Of a stretch of 64,000 bases of DNA, positions 56,083-63,876 are shown one piece after another. How positions within the stretch are numbered: the first letter of the stretch is position 1; each line of letters starts with the position of its first letter. The notes under the pieces are model-generated. The model made no database searches and was not told the origin of the DNA. It worked only from the letters and a program-made list of their open reading frames with translations. The translations under genes were made by a program, and so were the position numbers. The DNA is from a virus (taxonomy: Duplodnaviria; Caudoviricetes), in IMG/VR virus record IMGVR_UViG_3300028833_000075, positions 64,001 to 128,000 of that record; one strand, given 5' to 3'.

Positions 56083-56154
56083 TTAAATATCGCACGCTCC
56101 GGTATGTCGGAGCGTGTTTCTTATAGATATTTTATTGAAAGAAGGTTGAATCCC

Positions 56155-56373
56155 ATGTGCAAGGTGACTCTGTCTGATGAGGATGGGCTGTTTAAAATTT
56201 GCCTTGTTTCAAATGAAACCCCATACCAAATTTTAAAGTATTACAATATTAACCCTGATACAAAAATTGTTTATTTGAATGGAGAAATTCTTTCAAAAGA
56301 AAGAATGAGGAAAGTAATTCTAGAAAACAATTCTGTGCATCTTACGGTTAGAAATAAAACAGTAATGCGATAA
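56155..56373 (+). CDS. Small ubiquitin-like (beta-grasp) protein, no terminal Gly
   Basis: 72 aa, TP.QIL....INP...IVYLNG pattern of ThiS/MoaD-like folds; heads E1/E2/JAB operon. Confidence 0.5.
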   Translation: MCKVTLSDEDGLFKICLVSNETPYQILKYYNINPDTKIVYLNGEILSKERMRKVILENNSVHLTVRNKTVMR

Positions 56374-56428
56374 TAAAACATGTCTATAAAGCTTCGGCTT
56401 TTAGAAAATAATTTATAGGAGAGATTGT

Positions 56429-57040
56429 ATGGTTAAGATTACTTTGATTACCAGTAACCCTAAGGTAGTTGACATTGTGCCCGAGACAATGACCGTTCGT
56501 GATTTTCTGGATAAGCATAATGTGAACTATGGATTGGCATCTACTTCCATTGATGGTGTACCTCTGCAGTCCGGTGGTATGGATATGACTTTTGCCGAAT
56601 ATCAGATTACAGACCGGGCTATTGTGACCTGCCTGCCGAACAAGGACAACGGAGCGCAGGCCATTGTGGTTGGTTCTTCCTGTGTTGTGAAGTCCACTCT
56701 GACCCCGGCAGAAATTAAGCGAATTAAGAAGTTCCATCCCGAAGCTTTGGTAATGGAAAATGAAGACGGAGATCCGGTATTTGCTATCGATATCGATGAA
56801 ACCACTCCTGGTTCTATTAACGGGAATGGTGCCTGTTTCGGCAATGCAACAAGTACCGATGGTAAGGCAACTATTACGGTTGTTATTGATCCTGCCGCTG
56901 AAAACACTATTGAGCTGGTTTACGAAAGGCTGGGCCGTGCTCTGATGTATCTGAAGGAAATGGAAGAGCAGCTTGCTGAAGTTTTACCGGATTTGGACAG
57001 CGAAGAACGTGAAATCCGTTCCATGATTGTTGGTATGTAA
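56429..57040 (+). CDS. Ubiquitin-like domain fused to C-terminal domain
   Basis: N-terminal ~75 aa (TVRDFL....V......IDGVPL...MDMTFAEY.I) ending in KDNG. Confidence 0.65.
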   Translation: MVKITLITSNPKVVDIVPETMTVRDFLDKHNVNYGLASTSIDGVPLQSGGMDMTFAEYQITDRAIVTCLPNKDNGAQAIVVGSSCVVKSTLTPAEIKRIKKFHPEALVMENEDGDPVFAIDIDETTPGSINGNGACFGNATSTDGKATITVVIDPAAENTIELVYERLGRALMYLKEMEEQLAEVLPDLDSEEREIRSMIVGM

Positions 57041-57094
57041 CCTTCGGAGAGGGAGAGATTCTTCCTCTCCCTCTCTATTTTACGGAGGTAAAAC

Positions 57095-58459
57095 ATGTTC
57101 AATACACACTTAAATTGTATTGCAGAATTTCCTGCATTTTTAAGAGACAAGATTTATGTAAATAATAATGTAGCCCCGGATGACACGCTGCTGATGACAG
57201 CAACTGCGTTGTTGTATCAGAGAGTTGAAAATCTGAAATTAACTTTTGAAGTATTTAATAACAAAGAAGTAGAAAATATCAATCTAAACCCGGAAGTATA
57301 TTCATTTCATTGGTTTAATAATGTTGGAAATCCAGATGAGCTGTTAAATTTAGTAAAGAATAATTTTACTTCAATAGAAAAACTTTCAACTCATGAAAAG
57401 TTTCTGTCTGAGCAACTGAAAATGCCAATATTTATTCGCTTAATGCCAGCTGAAAATACTGTCTGTATTTTCACTTCAGAAATGTCTTATAAAGCGTGGC
57501 ACAGTTTTCAGTTCTTTATTCCAAAATACTTCAGGATTTTCAAAGAAAAACCACTTAACAAAGAAGAAATTTCTTTTCTCGAAACCTTGACGTTCAAAAC
57601 AAGTTCTTTGTATGAAGCGAGGTTGAGAGAATTATTAGATACGGATTCTTTCAGAAAATATATTTTAAAAGATCGATTGGAACAGTTTGAAAGAAAGCTG
57701 TTTGAAGCTAAAGTTCAAGCTGCCAAAAACAATCTTGCAAGCCTTGAAAATGAAATGAACGCGGCCATGGAAGCTTATAGAAAAGCTTGCGAGAAAAGAA
57801 TTGAAGCTATTGCGCTTGTATCAGGTCTGCAATCTATGGCAGATCAGACGGAAGAACACACTGAATTGCAGGATTACCTGTTAAATAATCAAAGGCTTTG
57901 CAATGTAACACTAGATAATTCCACGATTTCATACATTGTGAAAACATATCTGGCCCCACACCATATAGGCGAATGGGAAATGATAACAAAACACATTCAG
58001 TATTTTGATCAGTATCTTACAAGCAAATTTACACGCACAGAGATAAAGCTTCTGCTTGATGCGATCTTCTCGGAAAACCGCTGCCTAAAAGTAAAAATGT
58101 GTGCCTATTTCTCTTTGGATTACTTTGGAAGCAAGGTTACATCAGCATATAAATATAATTTTGCTAATGTAAACAAAACACTGATGAACTATATTCCAAA
58201 CCCTCATTTGCACTATCATAATTGCTTTGGGCAGAATAAGGAAGCAATATTGGAACAGCTAAAATGCGGCGATGCAATCGGAGCGATCGAGTGCTCTGTG
58301 GCTTGCGCTCAAAGGGTTAACATTCACGAAAATCTGAGCTTTGGACCTTTTGTGCGGGACTTGTTATCATGTTCCGGCAAATGTCTTGTAACGGAAGATG
58401 GAACTGAATTAACGCCAGAGGAAGCTGTTGCATATCTGAAAGGACAAGATAATGAATAA
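57095..58459 (+). CDS. Coiled-coil protein with C-terminal E2-like domain
   Basis: Central coiled coil; PNPHLHYHNCFG resembles the HP...C catalytic segment of prokaryotic E2 families; adjacent to JAB and E1. Confidence 0.55.
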   Translation: MFNTHLNCIAEFPAFLRDKIYVNNNVAPDDTLLMTATALLYQRVENLKLTFEVFNNKEVENINLNPEVYSFHWFNNVGNPDELLNLVKNNFTSIEKLSTHEKFLSEQLKMPIFIRLMPAENTVCIFTSEMSYKAWHSFQFFIPKYFRIFKEKPLNKEEISFLETLTFKTSSLYEARLRELLDTDSFRKYILKDRLEQFERKLFEAKVQAAKNNLASLENEMNAAMEAYRKACEKRIEAIALVSGLQSMADQTEEHTELQDYLLNNQRLCNVTLDNSTISYIVKTYLAPHHIGEWEMITKHIQYFDQYLTSKFTRTEIKLLLDAIFSENRCLKVKMCAYFSLDYFGSKVTSAYKYNFANVNKTLMNYIPNPHLHYHNCFGQNKEAILEQLKCGDAIGAIECSVACAQRVNIHENLSFGPFVRDLLSCSGKCLVTEDGTELTPEEAVAYLKGQDNE

Positions 58460-59039
58460 TGAAATTGTATTGAAAGACTGGCAAACTCACTGTGGGTTCG
58501 CCAGTCCACAAAGTAATATAAACATTTACTATTCACCTTTGGCTATTACAAAAACAATTATGCTTGTAAATACCCATCCTGAAGAAATTGGTTGGAATAT
58601 GGTAGTAAAGCCTTATAAAGACGGGTATAAAGTTGAGGATATCGTAGTATATCCCCAAAAAGTAAGTCCGGCATATGTTTCAGTTGACCTTCCAAGGTAT
58701 GGATTGTGGAAAGCAAACCTTGACGACGAAGTAGAAGCTAATTTGTTTGGAAACGGACATTCTCATGTTAACATGAGTACTTTCGCATCATCCGTCGATG
58801 AACGTCAGCAGCATGATGAAATCCTGACAAAGAAAAACGGATTTTATCTTTTCCAGATATGGAACAAAAGAAATGAAATAAGCTCATTCTTTTATGATAT
58901 TGATAATAAAATTTTCTATCGACCGGAAAATGTTAACATAATCGTAGAAGAAGCAAATGAGTTTATTATAAACTCTTTTGAAATCGTACAAGGAAGACAT
59001 AATCGGATCAACGCTTATGAGGCAGGTGAAGATTTTTGA
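58452..59039 (+). CDS. JAB/MPN+ metallo-isopeptidase
   Basis: EIGW...GHSHVNMSTFASSVD (E...HxH...S..D). Confidence 0.85.
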   Translation: MNNEIVLKDWQTHCGFASPQSNINIYYSPLAITKTIMLVNTHPEEIGWNMVVKPYKDGYKVEDIVVYPQKVSPAYVSVDLPRYGLWKANLDDEVEANLFGNGHSHVNMSTFASSVDERQQHDEILTKKNGFYLFQIWNKRNEISSFFYDIDNKIFYRPENVNIIVEEANEFIINSFEIVQGRHNRINAYEAGEDF

Positions 59040-59704
59040 ATCTAAGTAAATCTTATGAGTTTTTTAATCCGGATAAATGCAAGGAAATGATCCATATTAT
59101 TGGTTGTGGATCTGTCGGCTCTACGGTAGCTGAACTTTTGGCAAGATTTGGTTTAACAAAAATCTCGCTATATGACTTTGATACTGTTGAGCCGCATAAT
59201 ATTGTAAACCAGATGTTTGTTCATCGCCAAATCGGAATGCCGAAGGTAGAAGCTGTACGAGAAATTTTGTTAGATATCAATCCTGAAATGAATGTTAAGA
59301 TGTATACCAAAGGATGGAACGGCGAGCCTCTGGATGGATACGTATTTCTTGCAGTAGATAATATTGAACTAAGAGCAAAAATTGTAAAAGAAAACCTATA
59401 TAATGATTTTATAAAAGCTTTCTTTGATTTCAGAACCGGACTTACAAATGCTGACCACTTTGCAGCAGATTGGTCCGAATTTAAAAGCAGAAAAAATTTT
59501 TTAAACACGATGAACTTTACACACGAAGAAGCGAAACAAAATACACCTGTTTCAGCGTGTAATGTAGCTCTGTGTGTAGCTCCTACAGTAAGAATGGTTT
59601 GTAATGTAGGAATAGCAAATTTCATCAATTTTGTAAAAGGAGAACATTTGCATAAGCTGATTCCAATTGATGCATTTAGTTTCTCTGTCGAACCTGTTGG
59701 TTAA
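59036..59704 (+). CDS. ThiF/E1-like adenylyltransferase
   Basis: IIGCGSVGS, DFD.VEPHN..NQ, KVEA, AVDN...R; candidate catalytic Cys in PVSAC. Confidence 0.9.
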   Translation: MNLSKSYEFFNPDKCKEMIHIIGCGSVGSTVAELLARFGLTKISLYDFDTVEPHNIVNQMFVHRQIGMPKVEAVREILLDINPEMNVKMYTKGWNGEPLDGYVFLAVDNIELRAKIVKENLYNDFIKAFFDFRTGLTNADHFAADWSEFKSRKNFLNTMNFTHEEAKQNTPVSACNVALCVAPTVRMVCNVGIANFINFVKGEHLHKLIPIDAFSFSVEPVG

Positions 59705-59728
59705 TATAGGTTAATCTATATTCCAAAT

Positions 59729-60028
59729 ACTCATGCAATGCATAGTGAGAGAAATCTCGAACTCTTAATGTGATTATGAGTAGCAATTCGCCTGATGAGG
59801 GGGTAGGGCTCCTGAAAGAGCTGGAGGCGGCGGACGTCGAAGAAATCCTAGGAAAATGTGGGCAGCGTGATAGAAAAGTCCTGTAATCTCGGAGGAAATA
59901 AGGTAGGCACGAGGGAAAGGTAAAGGGAAGTCAGTTGAAACGCGGTAAACGGTAGATAAAAGGCCTGGATCCTGGGAACGTTTCGGTCGTCACTGGAAAG
60001 ACATATAACGATTTAGATTGCATGGAGT
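59729..60028 (+). ncRNA. Retron-like msr-msd RNA 1 (upstream of RT)
   Basis: Terminal inverted repeat ACTCATGCAAT (59729-39) / ATTGCATGGAGT (60017-28); G59740 directly after 5' arm; GAGA-GAAA-TCTC hairpin; 3' block shared with RNA 2. Confidence 0.65.
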
Positions 60029-60035
60029 GATAAAA

Positions 60036-61166
60036 ATGATTTACATAACAATCAGACAGAAAGAAAAAGAAAAACAAATTAGTTGGCTTGATTTAATCAG
60101 CGAAGAAGAAATTCCTCTCAGTGATTTCTCTTCGTGCGGCTCTGCCGGAACTGTAACAAGAGCGCTTAATGAGGCAACGCCCGAACTGCTTCGCAGAATT
60201 AATCCAGAAGAAATGATTAATGTTTTGAAACGGTTTAATACCTCACATGAAAACCTGTTTAAAGCAGACCGTAAAACTCTGTATCGACATTTCAGCATTC
60301 CAAAGAAAACAGGTGGACTGCGGCCTATCGATGCGCCATGTGATGAGCTTCAAAATGCGCTGGATGAACTGAGGATTATCTTAACTGAAAAGTTTGGAGT
60401 TCTTTATCATACATCGGCCTTTGCATACATTCCGAATAGAAGCACTGTACAGATGGTAAGAAAACATCAGGTAAATGAATCAAATTGGTTTTATAAAACA
60501 GACGTCAGCGGATTCTTTCCACACACGACACTGAGCTTTACAATGAAGATGCTGTCAATGATCTTTCCTTTAAGTGAGATTTGCAAAGTACAGGAAGGAT
60601 ATGCAGAACTGGAAAAAGCTTTAAGTCTTGGTTTCCTAAACGGCGGTCTTCCGCAGGGAACAAAACTGAGTCCGGCGCTGACGAATATGATTGCTATCCC
60701 GATTGATCATCGACTGTTTAATGATCTTGCGCACAAGCGTTTTGTGTATACTCGATATGCAGATGATCTGCATATTTCATGTCAGCAGAAATTCGATTCT
60801 GAAAAGATGACTAAATACATTGAAAAGGTATTTAAAGAATTTGATGCTCCATGGATTCTGAAGCCCGAGAAAACACATTACGGAAGCAGAAAAGGTAAGA
60901 ATTTTATGCTTGGTGTAGTTCTTAACGCGAACAATGATATTTCGACGGGATGGAGAAATAAGAAGCTTTTCAAAGCAATGACAACAAACTTAATTATGGA
61001 TTGGAAAAATAATAAGTATTGGCCCGCCGATGACGTTCAACAGTACGCAGGGTTATTGTCTTATTATAAAATGGTAGAGAAAGAATACTTCGATAATCTG
61101 GTAGATCACTTTAACAATAAATTCTCTGTAAACCTCAAACAAATTATAAAGGAACTAGTTTCCTAA
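60036..61166 (+). CDS. Retron-type reverse transcriptase (376 aa)
   Basis: IPKKTGGLRPI, SAFAY, KTDVSGFF, LPQGTKLSP, YTRYADDL, KTH...MLGV; no maturase/endonuclease extension. Confidence 0.9.
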   Translation: MIYITIRQKEKEKQISWLDLISEEEIPLSDFSSCGSAGTVTRALNEATPELLRRINPEEMINVLKRFNTSHENLFKADRKTLYRHFSIPKKTGGLRPIDAPCDELQNALDELRIILTEKFGVLYHTSAFAYIPNRSTVQMVRKHQVNESNWFYKTDVSGFFPHTTLSFTMKMLSMIFPLSEICKVQEGYAELEKALSLGFLNGGLPQGTKLSPALTNMIAIPIDHRLFNDLAHKRFVYTRYADDLHISCQQKFDSEKMTKYIEKVFKEFDAPWILKPEKTHYGSRKGKNFMLGVVLNANNDISTGWRNKKLFKAMTTNLIMDWKNNKYWPADDVQQYAGLLSYYKMVEKEYFDNLVDHFNNKFSVNLKQIIKELVS

Positions 61167-61176
61167 TTTTACAGTA

Positions 61177-61342
61177 TGACATAATGAATTGCATTAAATG
61201 CTCAGTGCATGTAATGAACTGATAGGCAACGATACAGTCTATCCAATTGTAATGTTGTACAGCTGCAGAAAATGAAATGCTTGATTTTCTGCAGCTGTAA
61301 ACCTTACAATTGGAATGTCAATAATATATTTAGATCATGTCA
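61177..61342 (+). ncRNA. Retron-like msr-msd RNA 2 (downstream of RT)
   Basis: TGACATAAT (61177-85) / ATCATGTCA (61334-42) arms, G61186, short hairpins, then long hairpin 61242-61314. Confidence 0.7.
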
Positions 61343-61439
61343 GATGTACAATTTGGAAAGAAAACCGTAAAATGGTAAGCTAAAAAGTGTCAAACATATT
61401 GATAATAAACACTTCCGATGATGTCAAATCTGGTGGGGA

Positions 61440-61464
61440 CATTCGAGAATTTACGTAATGGGGA
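61440..61464 (+). promoter_or_regulatory. CATTCGA...GGGGA promoter-like motif ahead of hairpin array
   Basis: CATTCGAGAATTTACGTAATGGGGA. Confidence 0.6.
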
Positions 61465-61467
61465 AAG

Positions 61468-61786
61468 AATGCACAGCTAAAACAGCTTACTTTTTATTAA
61501 GGTTCAAAATAGTTGTTTTATATCGTGCATTTTATACATTATTCTCTACTGGGCAAATTGGCAGCTAATAACGTTTACTTTTTTTATAGCAAATGAGCCG
61601 TAGAGGCTCGCATATTAAATTAACGTTATGATTTGCCAAACAAACAAAGCTAGTGCGGCTTACTATATATATATAGAAATAAAAGAAGAAAACAGTCGCA
61701 CAATTTCTACTTTATGCGGAACGCTAGTCAGGCTTACTTTTCTAAAATACTTGGAATATTTTTAGTTTGACGATACCGTTCCGCAT
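61468..61786 (+). ncRNA. Array of four homologous hairpin RNAs (GCUA - 7-bp stem - UUACU)
   Basis: Units ~61468-61531, 61558-61639, 61646-61706, 61714-61786 with covarying stems. Confidence 0.7.
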
Positions 61787-61810
61787 CTTTTTTCTGAAAG
61801 GAGTAAGGTT

Positions 61811-62842
61811 ATGAAGGAATTATTCAAAGAGTATCTGTTTACTAAACACATTCTTGTTGCAACAAGCGAACCGACTGCAGAAGAAAGTTTTAATACGCTT
61901 GTTGCGCTGAAGAATCAGCTTGGAATTGAAATTACAAAAGGGAAAGAATCTGCAAGTTCAGATTTAATCAGATTTGCAGCAAACAATCTTGGAGAATATA
62001 TTCCTGAACCTTTTTATCGCGGGTTCCCGGAAACCGTAAAACAACTTAATAAAGATCAGCTGTTGTTCGATCAAGTATTTCATTATTTTGTGACATACGG
62101 TCTCGGTGAATTCGACGAAGCAGGACATTCGCTTTTCGAGAAAGAGTTTGAACGGCTCGCCTTTAACGAAGACGTTACTCAAAAGGAATTTGAAATTCTG
62201 AGTGAAGCCGATGCGATTGACAGGCTTCAAAATTATGTTATTAATCTGCTTGAAAGTTCACGACCGCTGAGTGAAGATACTTATGTCATTGTCAGCGAAG
62301 TTATGCGGGACTATATGATCGTTCCGAAGGCAATTTCATGCAAGCAGACCGCCGTGCGGCTGCTTTATGACACGAAAGCTGTCTATCGTTATGGTCGGTA
62401 CATCTCTCTCGCAGACGTAATTAAGCTTGTTGATTATATTAATTATACTGTTTACAGTAATGAAAATCTTAAGAAACTCAACCTTAGAAATAAAGACAGA
62501 AAACTTATTACTAAGGTGATTGACTTTTGTTTCGACAGCAAACGGTATAATTACAACGAGTGTTTCGAGAAGCGTAAGATATGGTGCGGCCTGCTTCACC
62601 ATATTCACTATCGTCCTGACAACGATGCGGCAGTTACTTTTGTGACGCTGATTCGTGAAGGCAAAAATATTTCTGCATACAGCAGATTCGAAGAAGAGAT
62701 GTCCGATAATAATGTCGGTAAGGCTGCAGAAATTCTTTACAATGAGAAAGGCTCATCTATAGTAATTCGCAACCTGAATTATCTCTTGTCTCGGTGCAAA
62801 TCCGAAGAAGACGTAAAAGAGGTGTTATCATGGGTAAAATAA
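61811..62842 (+). CDS. Alpha-helical protein, N-terminal partner of TerD-like gene (possibly Rot/TROVE-like)
   Basis: PFYRGFP..V, LLH.IHYRP, IVIRNLNYLL; overlaps next gene. Confidence 0.55.
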   Translation: MKELFKEYLFTKHILVATSEPTAEESFNTLVALKNQLGIEITKGKESASSDLIRFAANNLGEYIPEPFYRGFPETVKQLNKDQLLFDQVFHYFVTYGLGEFDEAGHSLFEKEFERLAFNEDVTQKEFEILSEADAIDRLQNYVINLLESSRPLSEDTYVIVSEVMRDYMIVPKAISCKQTAVRLLYDTKAVYRYGRYISLADVIKLVDYINYTVYSNENLKKLNLRNKDRKLITKVIDFCFDSKRYNYNECFEKRKIWCGLLHHIHYRPDNDAAVTFVTLIREGKNISAYSRFEEEMSDNNVGKAAEILYNEKGSSIVIRNLNYLLSRCKSEEDVKEVLSWVK

Positions 62843-63876
62843 ATCCCATCGTTTTAATTCAGATGCTGATGCAGTACCATAATTACTCAACAAAGCCTCG
62901 TGTATTTAAGTTTACGCGGAATAACAGGCTCAGAATGCATCGGGAATCTGAAGAAGAACAGGAAAAACGCAAATCTGTCCTGTCGCCTGAAATCAGAGCA
63001 GCTGCAGAGAAAACAATTAAGTCTCAGCTTTGGGAGTCTCTGAAAGGACGAGCAGGAAAAGTCTATGTAGATCCTGCGATGAAATCAATTGCAGTTCCGC
63101 TGCAGATGTCTGTTTCTCAAAACGGATTCGATGTTCTTCCTGCTGGCTCTCGGGTGAAAATTCCAGAAGGCAAGAAGATCAGAGCTTTTACTTATTGGGA
63201 AAAGGTAAACGATATCGATCTGTCTTGTTTCGGTTTGACAGAAGACGGAACTCAGCAGGAGTTCTCATGGAGAAATATGTATGATCGGCAAAGTTCCGAT
63301 ATTACTTTCTCTGGTGATGAAACATCCGGTTATAATGGCGGCTCGGAATATTTTGATATTAACTTAAATCTTTTTAAAGCGAAGCATCCTGATTTCAGGT
63401 ATGTTGTCTTTTGCGACAATGTATATTCTAATGGCGGCAGCACTCATTTCAACAAGTGTTTCTGCAAAGCTGGATTCATGATTCGCGATGAAAAAGATAG
63501 CGGCGAAATCTACGAGCCAAAAACCGTTAAAACCTCATTCCGTGTGGATGGGGATTCATCTTTTAGTTATATGTTTGCTATCGATCTTGACACGAGAGAA
63601 ATGATTTGGCTGAACATGTCTCGCGAAGGCAATCATGCTATCGCTGGAGAAGAAAAGATGGATTTCCTGATGAGTTATCTGACTGCTACCGAAGTGTTTA
63701 ATGTTTATGATCTGTTTAAAGCATGCGGAGAGAAAGCTACAACCATTCTCGACGCAGATGTAATTGTAACCGATTATACTTTCAATGAGCCTTCGATTGC
63801 GGAAGCAATCAAAGACAAAGAGATTATTCGGTCTTACGACTTTGAAAAGATCTTAAAATACATTCAGCCACAATAA
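62830..63876 (+). CDS. TerD-like domain protein
   Basis: FTYW...DIDLS, FSGDETSG..GGSEYFDI. Confidence 0.65.
   Translation: MGKINPIVLIQMLMQYHNYSTKPRVFKFTRNNRLRMHRESEEEQEKRKSVLSPEIRAAAEKTIKSQLWESLKGRAGKVYVDPAMKSIAVPLQMSVSQNGFDVLPAGSRVKIPEGKKIRAFTYWEKVNDIDLSCFGLTEDGTQQEFSWRNMYDRQSSDITFSGDETSGYNGGSEYFDINLNLFKAKHPDFRYVVFCDNVYSNGGSTHFNKCFCKAGFMIRDEKDSGEIYEPKTVKTSFRVDGDSSFSYMFAIDLDTREMIWLNMSREGNHAIAGEEKMDFLMSYLTATEVFNVYDLFKACGEKATTILDADVIVTDYTFNEPSIAEAIKDKEIIRSYDFEKILKYIQPQ

What the first reader, a model, noticed from the sequence alone, without database searches (positions are those of the whole stretch)
59729..61342. One RT, two retron RNAs: shared scaffold, different DNA cargo, flanking the gene
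Seen: both flanks have terminal inverted repeats whose sequences differ but stay complementary (ACTCATGCAAT/ATTGCATGGAGT; TGACATAAT/ATCATGTCA), an AAT-G with the G right after the 5' arm (59740, 61186), a short hairpin, a TAATG...GCAA segment, and a conserved 25-nt 3' block (TGGAAAGACATATAACGATTTAGAT 59994-60018 vs TGGAATGTCAATAATATATTTAGAT 61311-61335). The middles are unrelated: ~200 nt purine-rich and poorly paired versus a 73-nt near-perfect hairpin. Established: canonical retrons have one msr-msd upstream of the RT, primed from a G next to the a1/a2 stem. Inference: a multi-template retron making two distinct ssDNAs. The 3' arm of RNA 1 also covers the RT RBS, allowing translational feedback.
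Basis: partly seen in the sequence, partly recalled or inferred. Interest (0 to 1): 0.9.

Follow-up and report, generated by a model that had tools for sequence, protein, structure and literature searches.

The report
Phage retron with several template RNAs
A 150-kb phage carries a retron-type reverse transcriptase flanked on both sides by retron-style template RNAs with unrelated, fast-changing cargo. Related phages have up to five or more such RNAs, always behind a ubiquitin-like tagging operon, an arrangement I found in no published paper.

Summary
Observation confirmed; interpretation largely supported, but only in silico. The 376-aa RT (60036-61166, YADD) belongs to the retron lineage. 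Both flanks hold the same RNA design: closing stem a1/a2, a G right after a1, two small hairpins, a variable middle, and TTTAG before a2.

A covariance model built only from other phages ranks the two flanks first and second in the window. About 200 homologous loci from gut phages and MAGs show the pattern. Typically there is one unit upstream and 0-5 in tandem downstream, all on the RT strand.

The stems covary: 137 distinct arm pairs, with compensatory changes at seven positions. The cargo is at shuffled-level identity even between phages whose RT genes are 91% identical. It matches nothing else in the phage genome.

The RT and its RNAs always follow a Ubl / p454 / JAMM / E1(ThiF) operon, and ordinary bacterial retrons lack it.

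DNA synthesis from either RNA is inferred, not shown. The RBS-masking idea holds only in the window's own clade.

Closest published parallels are canonical retrons, engineered "multitrons" and the UG27 phage ncRNA arrays (2026 preprint). Other agents of this scan already noted this cassette, and natural retron arrays, on other DNA.

The parts
56429..59704 (+). Conserved upstream operon: Ubl-like 203-aa gene, 454-aa protein (possible E2-like C-terminal domain), 195-aa JAMM-motif protein, 222-aa ThiF/E1
   Evidence: ThiF Pfam 9e-25. The JAMM motif HSH-x7-S-xx-D is read directly in 58452-59039. ThiF, JAB and p454 lie upstream on the same strand in 73-75 of the viral loci with upstream DNA, and in most MAG loci. 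For p454, H371 and C377 are invariant, and residues 255-433 give only weak RWD/UBC-like matches, Z 6.2-6.6.
59729..59739 (+). ncRNA-1 5' arm (a1)
   Evidence: Pairs with 60017-60028. Family-wide covariation.
59740..59740 (+). Candidate priming (branch) G of ncRNA-1
   Evidence: A G directly follows a1. This column is at least 90% G in 109 units. The priming role is inferred by analogy with retrons.
59746..59786 (+). ncRNA-1 msr-like scaffold: hairpin 1, hairpin 2, GTAGCAA
   Evidence: CM R1 hit at 59730-59812, 25.6 bits. Conserved, with compensatory changes, in relatives sharing 72-88% RT identity.
59787..59993 (+). ncRNA-1 cargo (msd-like, about 207 nt, 66% purine, poorly paired)
   Evidence: Cannot be aligned between close relatives. 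No match elsewhere in the genome.
59994..60028 (+). ncRNA-1 3' block (..ATTTAG) and 3' arm a2 (60017-60028), which includes GGAG at 60024-60027
   Evidence: TTTAGATTG is invariant in 12 close relatives; coordinates.
60036..61166 (+). Retron-lineage reverse transcriptase, 376 aa; YADD at 60756-60767
   Evidence: RVT_1 3e-17. PADLOC RT_II-A 1e-43. NCBIfam retron St85 at 157 bits, below the 235 cutoff. PDB profile: retron Ec83 2e-29, Ec78, Ec67, Ec86; DRT2 only 1e-3. Catalytic residues are invariant.
61177..61186 (+). ncRNA-2 5' arm (a1, starting 11 nt after the RT stop codon) and candidate priming G at 61186
   Evidence: In relatives a1 overlaps the stop codon and is 12-13 bp long, with compensatory changes.
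61191..61229 (+). ncRNA-2 msr-like scaffold: hairpin 1, hairpin 2, GGCAA
   Evidence: CM R1 second-best hit at 61176-61243. Helices 2 and 3 are 95-97% paired, with 6 pairs changed on both sides.
61243..61313 (+). ncRNA-2 cargo: near-perfect 71-nt hairpin
   Evidence: As DNA it folds at -28.8 kcal/mol, z -9.9. Relatives carry a hairpin of entirely different sequence at this place.
61314..61342 (+). ncRNA-2 3' block (..ATTTAG) and 3' arm a2 (61334-61342)

Best explanation
This is a phage-borne retron of an undescribed type. One retron-lineage RT (60036-61166) is served by two cognate msr/msd-type RNAs, one immediately upstream (59729-60028) and one immediately downstream (61177-61342). Both lie on the RT strand. 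They are probably made from the same transcript as the preceding Ubl / p454 / JAMM / E1 operon, since there is only a 24-nt gap after the ThiF stop and no predicted terminator.

In each RNA the a1/a2 duplex brings a conserved G (59740, 61186) next to the conserved UUUAG that precedes a2. By analogy with retrons, the RT binds the two small msr hairpins, primes from the 2'-OH of that G and copies the cargo. That would yield two different branched RT-DNAs. One would be about 200 nt, pyrimidine-rich and unstructured. The other would be a hairpin of about 70-100 nt.

Shown here: RT lineage, RNA family, covariation, copy number and positions across about 200 loci, cargo hypervariability, and linkage to the Ubl operon.

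Inferred: transcription, priming, cDNA synthesis and function. My guess for function is that the RT-DNA/RNA/RT complexes act together with the ubiquitin-like conjugation proteins during infection, as a sensor, decoy or regulator in phage-host or phage-phage conflict. The interchangeable cargo would be the specificity-determining or fast-evolving part.
For: RT lineage. The best profile matches are all retron RTs over residues 65-369: Ec83 2e-29, Ec78 2e-26, Ec67 and Ec86. Group II intron RTs score 1e-10 and DRT2 1e-3. The catalytic D156, LPQG and YADD are invariant.

Same RNA family on both flanks. CM R1, built without the window, ranks the two flanks first and second.

Family-wide pattern. The strict stem signature gave 83 hits ending within 50 nt before the ATG and 52 starting within 50 nt after the stop, against a background median of 2 per bin. 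All 279 HMM hits are on the RT strand and none lies inside the RT gene. Among 107 loci with at least 1400 nt on both flanks, (upstream, downstream) unit counts were (1,2) in 38, (1,1) in 22, (1,0) in 17, (1,3) in 7 and (1,5) in 1.

Stem pairing. 90% of 229 units defined by their 5' part alone have at least 8 contiguous a1/a2 pairs, against 8% when the distal arm is shuffled.

Covariation. There are 137 distinct arm pairs, with Watson-Crick swaps at positions 1 and 4-9. In the window's clade, 12 of 25 pairs change on both sides, 95.9% of cells are paired, 0 of 500 shuffles reach this, and slid controls give 25-40%.

Cargo turnover. L003 and L083 share 91% RT nucleotide identity, 91% msr and 92% 3' block, but 57% cargo, which is the shuffled level. 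No two cargos within one locus are alike.

Feasibility. Engineered tandem msr-msd arrays are used by a single retron RT (10.1101/2023.07.17.549397).

Module linkage. ThiF, JAB and p454 lie upstream in 73-75 viral loci and in most MAG loci. They are absent next to bacterial retron RTs of 31% identity or less.
Against: The downstream unit scores only 12.7 bits (E 0.24) with the family model, and its stem has an A-C mismatch.

The typical cargo is not a stable hairpin, unlike classical msd. The RNA fold z has a median of -0.8. The window's predicted cDNA-1 folds worse than 197 of 200 shuffles.

The RT is below the curated cutoffs of every named retron model.

No classical retron effector is adjacent.

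Linkage to the Ubl operon could partly reflect synteny within one phage lineage. Against that, the downstream genes are not conserved.
Confidence: 0.65

Rival explanations
1. Only one of the two RNAs is a template. This would most likely be the upstream unit, which sits in the canonical position and has the canonical family scaffold. The downstream unit or units would be RT-binding, non-templating RNAs, acting as a regulator, decoy or assembly scaffold, or would be decaying duplicates.
For: The downstream unit of the window scores weakly (12.7 bits) and has an imperfect stem. Seventeen of 107 well-flanked loci have only the upstream unit detectable.
Against: Downstream units keep 12-13-bp stems, the G, both hairpins and the TTTAG box, with compensatory changes, across 72-88% RT identity. 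Downstream positions have their own conserved arm identities across phages. Decaying copies would not covary.
Confidence: 0.17
2. The units are structured RNAs that partner the RT but do not give constitutive msDNA. cDNA would be made only on a trigger, or by a different mode. Examples are type VI retrons, which make little msDNA until infection, or class 2 UG systems, which initiate internally rather than from a branch G.
For: Long, unstructured, A/C-rich cargos differ from classical msd. Type VI retrons (10.1101/2025.10.22.683967, abstract seen) and UG27 arrays (10.64898/2026.09.22.753630) show that non-canonical modes exist. A conserved box precedes a2, as a conserved start motif does in UG27.
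Against: The RT is of retron lineage, not UG/Abi. The a1 / G / a2 geometry is the retron priming geometry and is under strong selection.
Confidence: 0.13
3. The flanking repeats are not RNA genes but terminal inverted repeats of small mobile DNA elements (MITE-like), or recombination cassettes that accumulate next to the RT.
For: The units are 150-400 bp, bounded by inverted repeats, tandemly arrayed, and have interchangeable middles.
Against: The inner arm bases are conserved and the outer ones covary, the opposite of transposase-recognised ends. Internal hairpins also covary. All 279 copies are on the RT strand and only next to the RT. No further copy exists in the 150-kb genome.
Confidence: 0.02
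4. A diversity-generating retroelement, with the variable middle acting as a template repeat for mutagenic retrohoming into a phage gene.
For: A phage RT with an adjacent non-coding template.
Against: Neither cargo has a variable-repeat partner in the genome; the best stray matches are 13-19 nt. RT profile matches are to retrons.
Confidence: 0.01

Closest known systems
Canonical bacterial retrons, nearest RT relatives Ec83/Ec78 (type I-A) and St85/Sen2 (type II-A)
   Same: Retron-lineage RT with YADD. The ncRNA is closed by an a1/a2 stem, has a G directly after a1 and small msr hairpins, then a variable msd-like segment. An upstream unit abuts the RT gene.
   Different: More than one ncRNA per RT: one upstream plus 1 to 5 or more downstream. 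It is carried by phages. The RT has an N-terminal extension of about 65 aa and only about 27-31% identity to bacterial retron RTs. Most cargos are long and unstructured. The partner genes are a Ubl/E2-like/JAMM/E1 operon, not any of the effectors I know from the 13 described types (recalled, not looked up). A full-text search for 'retron' with 'ThiF' found nothing relevant.
UG27 phage RT systems with variable ncRNA arrays (bioRxiv 10.64898/2026.09.22.753630; Mestre 2022, PMC9226505)
   Same: Encoded by gut phages. One RT has a variable-length tandem array of structurally conserved, sequence-diverse ncRNA units. Units are gained and lost between close relatives. In UG27, each unit was shown experimentally to template a short cDNA.
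   Different: UG27 is a class 2 UG/Abi RT with YSDD and two domain-less accessory proteins. Its units are about 150 nt, with an AUC-N7-UANAG start and an internal hairpin template. Here the RT is of retron lineage with invariant YADD. The units are about 160-400 nt, closed by a1/a2 with a branch-type G, and the partners are E1, JAMM and related genes.
Engineered multitrons / arrayed retron ncRNAs (bioRxiv 10.1101/2023.07.17.549397)
   Same: Several msr-msd units in tandem on one transcript, used independently by a single retron RT to make several different RT-DNAs.
   Different: Those are laboratory constructs built on retron Eco1. This is a natural, evolutionarily conserved arrangement, with one unit on each side of the RT gene.
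Bacterial Ubl-conjugation defence operons (Bil, type II CBASS Cap2/Cap3)
   Same: An E1 (ThiF) gene and a JAMM isopeptidase gene in one operon, together with putative Ubl and E2-like genes.
   Different: Here the operon is phage-encoded and fixed next to an RT with its ncRNAs. The E2 and Ubl assignments are only weakly supported.

Membership tests
Retron | RT belongs to the retron clade of prokaryotic RTs | tested here: met
   The best PADLOC, NCBIfam and PDB profile matches are all retron RTs over nearly the full length. The score is below NCBIfam's curated cutoff for the St85 family (157 against 235 bits), so this is a separate subfamily.
Retron | ncRNA bounded by complementary a1/a2 repeats, supported by covariation | tested here: met
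   90% of units have at least 8 contiguous pairs, against 8% in controls. Compensatory changes occur at seven or more stem positions.
Retron | Conserved priming G at the 3' end of a1 | tested here: met
   G at 59740 and 61186. The column is at least 90% G in 109 units. Its use as a 2'-OH primer cannot be tested here.
Retron | One msr-msd per RT, located upstream | tested here: not met
   Two units here, one on each flank. Relatives have one upstream plus 0-5 or more downstream.
Retron | msd folds into a stable stem-loop | tested here: inconclusive
   Met for the downstream unit (z -7.2 as RNA, z -9.9 as DNA). Not met for the upstream unit or for most family cargos (median z -0.8).
Retron | Production of branched multicopy RT-DNA (msDNA) | not testable with these tools
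This needs an experiment.
Retron | Adjacent effector of one of the 13 described types | tested here: not met
   The neighbours are ThiF/E1, a JAMM-motif protein, p454 and a Ubl-like gene. The only PADLOC hits of the neighbours are E1-E2 models for ThiF.
UG27 ncRNA-array systems | Class 2 UG/Abi RT with a YSDD catalytic box | tested here: not met
   YADD is invariant. The profile is nearest to retron RTs, while DRT2, also class 2 UG, scores only 1e-3. No UG27 reference sequence was available for a direct comparison.
UG27 ncRNA-array systems | Two conserved accessory proteins without known domains (sORF, bORF) | tested here: not met
   The conserved partners here include a Pfam ThiF protein and a JAMM-motif protein.
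UG27 ncRNA-array systems | Variable tandem array of structurally conserved, sequence-diverse ncRNA units | tested here: met
   This is a resemblance in how the system works, not membership.
Diversity-generating retroelement | Template repeat with a cognate variable repeat in a target gene | tested here: not met
   blastn-short of both units against the 150,578-bp genome gives only 10-19-nt chance matches.
MITE / TIR mobile element | Terminal repeats conserved at their outer ends; copies dispersed in both orientations | tested here: not met
   The inner bases are conserved and the outer ones covary. All copies are on the RT strand and beside the RT, with none elsewhere in the genome.
Any Rfam family | Match reaching a family's gathering score | tested here: not met
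   Only sub-threshold miRNA-like hits on the hairpin, 28 bits or less against gathering scores of 68-94.

The most novel reading that the evidence does not exclude
These phages carry a natural library of several hypervariable reverse-transcribed ssDNAs made by one retron RT. The ssDNAs work with the co-inherited ubiquitin-like conjugation machinery as a counter-defence or inter-phage competition system. For example, RT-DNA complexes could sense or decoy host nucleic-acid-targeting defences and gate Ubl tagging. Each cargo would be a swappable specificity cassette. This would be a retron type with a new class of effector and a new logic of many templates per enzyme.
Probability: 0.25. Interest if true: 0.9.

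Novelty: new variant of a known kind. Interest (0 to 1): 0.8.

Why it matters
Retrons are known as bacterial anti-phage systems with one template RNA per RT. Here the phage carries the retron, and one RT appears to serve two to six or more templates whose cargo turns over faster than the genes around it. The whole unit is locked to a ubiquitin-like conjugation operon.

If the RNAs are templated, three things follow:
- A natural counterpart of engineered multitrons would exist.
- This would be a second, independent case, after UG27, of phages using RT-made DNA libraries.
- It would give a testable link between reverse transcription and Ubl tagging in phage-host conflict.

The compact, portable scaffold with freely replaceable cargo of about 70-250 nt is also of practical interest for producing ssDNA inside cells.

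Tried and rejected
- **Rfam:** the scan of 58500-62500 gave no family at gathering score.
- **Phage collection:** blastn of 59000-62000 against the annotated phages gave no match.
- **Loose stem-only scan:** on the whole genome it was too noisy, about 100 hits per strand. It was replaced by the covariance model.
- **Sequence-only HMM:** the msr HMM misses the window's own clade, where RT identity is 50-57%. That clade was examined through nine close relatives fetched by exact protein look-up.
- **Cargo as a DGR-like or recombineering donor:** no target in the phage genome.
- **Cargo of L266 against the 2.8-Mb MAG that holds it:** only the self match.
- **Cargo as hidden coding sequence:** 47% have a fully open frame against 33% of shuffles. 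The T-poor composition explains this, so it is not convincing.
- **Six-base palindromes as restriction decoys:** the window's downstream cargo is enriched (7, P 0.0015), but family cargos sit at shuffle level (z +1.4). RT ORFs are depleted (z -18), so at most the cargos escape palindrome avoidance.
- **Promoter and terminator scan of 59300-61900:** nothing above shuffles.
- **p454 as an E2:** no Pfam hit and no Foldseek PDB match at E <= 0.001. VIA-align gave only weak RWD/UBC-like rows, Z 6.2-6.6, below the noise level stated for helical models. The Atlas lead to Prok-E2_D scored 0.80.
- **PHROGs:** added nothing.
Full report
**What is there.** The window lies at 64001-128000 of a complete 150,578-bp phage genome with direct terminal repeats. 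An ORF at 60036-61166 (+) encodes a 376-aa reverse transcriptase: Pfam RVT_1 3e-17, best PADLOC model retron RT_II-A at 1e-43, and NCBIfam retron St85 family at 157 bits, below its cutoff of 235. A profile of 22 family members searched against all PDB sequences returns retron RTs first, over residues 65-369: Ec83 2e-29, Ec78 2e-26, Ec67 and Ec86. Group II intron RTs score about 1e-10 and DRT2 1e-3. The catalytic Asp of motif A, LPQG and YADD (60756-60767) are invariant in the family. The enzyme is therefore a retron-lineage RT that is probably active. It carries an N-terminal extension of about 65 residues.

**Checking the observation.**
- Upstream unit: a1 59729-59739, G 59740, hairpins 59746-59759 and 59761-59781, a purine-rich middle of about 207 nt, a block ending TTTAG, and a2 at 60017-60028.
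- Downstream unit: a1 61177-61185, G 61186, hairpins 61191-61201 and 61202-61222, a 71-nt near-perfect hairpin at 61243-61313, a block ending TTTAG, and a2 at 61334-61342.
- The downstream unit folds far better than shuffles (z -7.2). The upstream unit closes its terminal stem, but its middle does not fold (z -1.0).
- Rfam has no family for either unit.

**Comparative evidence.** RT homologues of 36-88% identity were collected from IMG/VR, JGI metagenomes, MAG contigs and exact protein look-ups. They sit on contigs of 60-165 kb from rumen, termite and human gut.

A stem search anchored at the RT start and stop showed the same design on both flanks in most loci. A 5' arm ends in TGTAAT, TGTAAC or TGCAAT and is followed by G. 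A 3' arm begins ATTACA or similar and is preceded by (T/C)AG. With a strict signature, 83 hits end within 50 nt before the ATG and 52 start within 50 nt after the stop, against a background median of 2 per 50-nt bin.

Many loci also carry further units in tandem downstream. L097 has four in the stem scan and five by HMM, L114 has one upstream plus four downstream, and L108 and L141 have one plus three. L206 has seven msr-like HMM hits within 3.6 kb, although several of these lack a clean stem.

I aligned the 5' 85 nt of 109 units from other loci. The alignment shows two covarying hairpins after the G. The covariance model built from it finds 59730-59812 as its best hit in the window and 61176-61243 as second best. 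It finds nothing else credible in the whole genome.

A sequence-only HMM of the same alignment gives 279 hits in the loci. All are on the RT strand and none is inside the RT gene. Among 107 loci with at least 1400 nt on both sides, the (upstream, downstream) counts are:

| upstream, downstream | loci |
|---|---|
| 1, 2 | 38 |
| 1, 1 | 22 |
| 1, 0 | 17 |
| 1, 3 | 7 |
| 1, 5 | 1 |
| 0, 1 | 1 |
| 0, 0 | 21 |

The (0,0) loci are mostly the window's own divergent clade, which the HMM cannot see.

**Structure tests.** Taking units defined only by their 5' part, 90% have at least 8 contiguous pairs between the 12 nt before the G and a site 90-450 nt downstream. Only 8% do when the distal 9 nt are shuffled. 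Among 137 distinct arm pairs, positions 1, 4, 5, 6, 7, 8 and 9 each show two to four Watson-Crick pair types and almost no mismatches.

For the window's own clade I used nine relatives sharing 74-88% RT identity, plus L003, L083 and L086. The downstream unit keeps a 12-13-bp stem that overlaps the RT stop codon, plus both hairpins. Overall 95.9% of cells are paired, and 12 of 25 pairs change on both sides. No shuffle out of 500 reaches this, and slid controls give 25-40% paired. The upstream unit keeps its scaffold and the TTTAG-ATTGCATG box.

**The cargo.**
- Across 202 distinct units the middle has a median length of 204 nt. It is richer in G+C than its surroundings (52% against 46%), A/C-rich and T-poor, and usually not well folded (median z -0.8).
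- No two cargos in the same locus resemble each other.
- Between close relatives the cargo is at shuffled-level identity while the scaffold is conserved. L003 and L083 share 91% RT nucleotide identity, 91% msr and 92% 3' block, but 57% cargo.
- L012 and L013 have the same RT and arms, but their downstream units span 227 and 135 nt.
- In the window's clade the downstream cargo is always a hairpin, of a different sequence in each phage.
- Neither window cargo matches anything else in the phage genome. One cargo tested against the MAG that holds it matched only itself.
- The predicted cDNA of the downstream unit is a strong DNA hairpin (-28.8 kcal/mol, z -9.9). That of the upstream unit is pyrimidine-rich and folds worse than 197 of 200 shuffles.

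**Context.**
- In 73-75 of the viral loci that include upstream DNA, and in most MAG loci, the RT and its RNAs are preceded on the same strand by homologues of the window's genes at 56429-59704. These are a 203-aa Ubl-like protein, a 454-aa protein, a 195-aa protein with an exact JAMM motif, and a ThiF/E1.
- The genes downstream of the array are not conserved.
- Bacterial retron RTs of 31% identity or less have neither the operon nor the RNA units, so the family boundary is sharp.
- The 454-aa protein has invariant His371 and Cys377. Its model is confident (pLDDT 88.6). Residues 255-433 give only weak RWD/UBC-like matches, so an E2 role is plausible but unproven.

**How it probably works.** By analogy with retrons, each unit folds independently. 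The RT recognises the two small hairpins, primes from the 2'-OH of the G next to a1, and copies the cargo starting at the conserved box before a2. One enzyme would thus make as many different RT-DNAs as there are units, two in this phage. An engineered tandem msr-msd array on a single transcript was built so that one retron RT has a separate substrate in each unit. These steps are inferred, and none could be tested here. The function is unknown. The fixed linkage to the Ubl operon and the rapid cargo turnover point to a conflict system in which the cargo is the fast-evolving part.

**Comparison with what is known.** The system works like a retron and passes the RT, stem and G tests. It fails three canonical features: one upstream ncRNA per RT, a hairpin msd in every unit, and an effector of a described type.

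The nearest published parallel for the array is UG27, a class 2 UG/Abi RT of gut phages. Its arrays of about 150-nt units were shown in September 2026 to template short cDNA hairpins (background). That system has YSDD, two domain-less accessory proteins and a different unit design, so this is not UG27.

Full-text searches gave nothing on natural multi-ncRNA retrons, on retrons with ThiF/JAB partners, or on retrons in crAss-like or other gut phages beyond a general note that retron-like RTs occur in viruses.

Within this scan, other agents have already reported the RT-plus-Ubl cassette in other phages. They have also reported tandem retron ncRNA arrays in Staphylococcus jumbo phages and in CPR bacteria. 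Those are unchecked AI notes, not publications.

**Verdict.** The reading as a multi-template retron is the best-supported explanation at about 0.65. The main rival is that only some units are templated. I rate it a new variant of a known kind, of high interest.

Noticed in passing
window 56104-59704: A phage-encoded ubiquitin-like conjugation operon (89-aa and 203-aa Ubl-like genes, a 454-aa protein, a JAMM-motif protein with GHSHVNMSTFASSVD, and ThiF/E1) lies directly upstream. It is co-inherited with the RT and its ncRNAs in essentially all homologous loci.
   Followed up: partly
window 61423-61446: A 24-nt block, GTCAAATCTGGTGGGGACATTCGA, just after the downstream ncRNA is identical in L001 and L002 (72% RT identity), although the surrounding spacer differs. 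It may be a promoter or the 5' element of the next transcription unit.
   Followed up: no
L012 2642-2868 versus L013 2642-2776: Two contigs with identical RT and identical downstream arms (TGGTGACAAT / ATTGTCACTG) differ by a 92-nt indel in the cargo. This is a recent change in cargo length.
   Followed up: partly
window 61243-61313: The downstream cargo hairpin displays CAATTG, CAGCTG and CTGCAG as double-stranded sites, plus TGTACA: 7 six-base palindromes, P 0.0015 against shuffles. Family-wide, cargos are at shuffle level while RT ORFs are strongly depleted.
   Followed up: partly
L194 5827-6636 and 8761-9462: In the human-gut clade an extra 269-aa ORF without any Pfam hit sits between ThiF and the upstream ncRNA. 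A calcineurin-like phosphoesterase gene follows the two-unit array.
   Followed up: partly
window 61811-63876: The two genes after the retron are a 343-aa protein of unknown function and a 360-aa TerD-like protein that matches part of the SCO0854 RING-family model. They are not conserved next to the RT in relatives.
   Followed up: partly
L266, L292, L299 (MAG or isolate contigs of 279-429 kb): Some family members lie in very long contigs labelled Clostridia, including an isolate, 'Clostridiales Family XIII bacterium PM5-7'. This suggests integrated prophages and Firmicutes hosts for part of the family.
   Followed up: no
window 61563-61657: The msr covariance model gives a weak fifth-ranked hit here (11.2 bits, E 0.55), inside the hairpin array noted by another reader. 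It is probably chance but was not examined.
   Followed up: no
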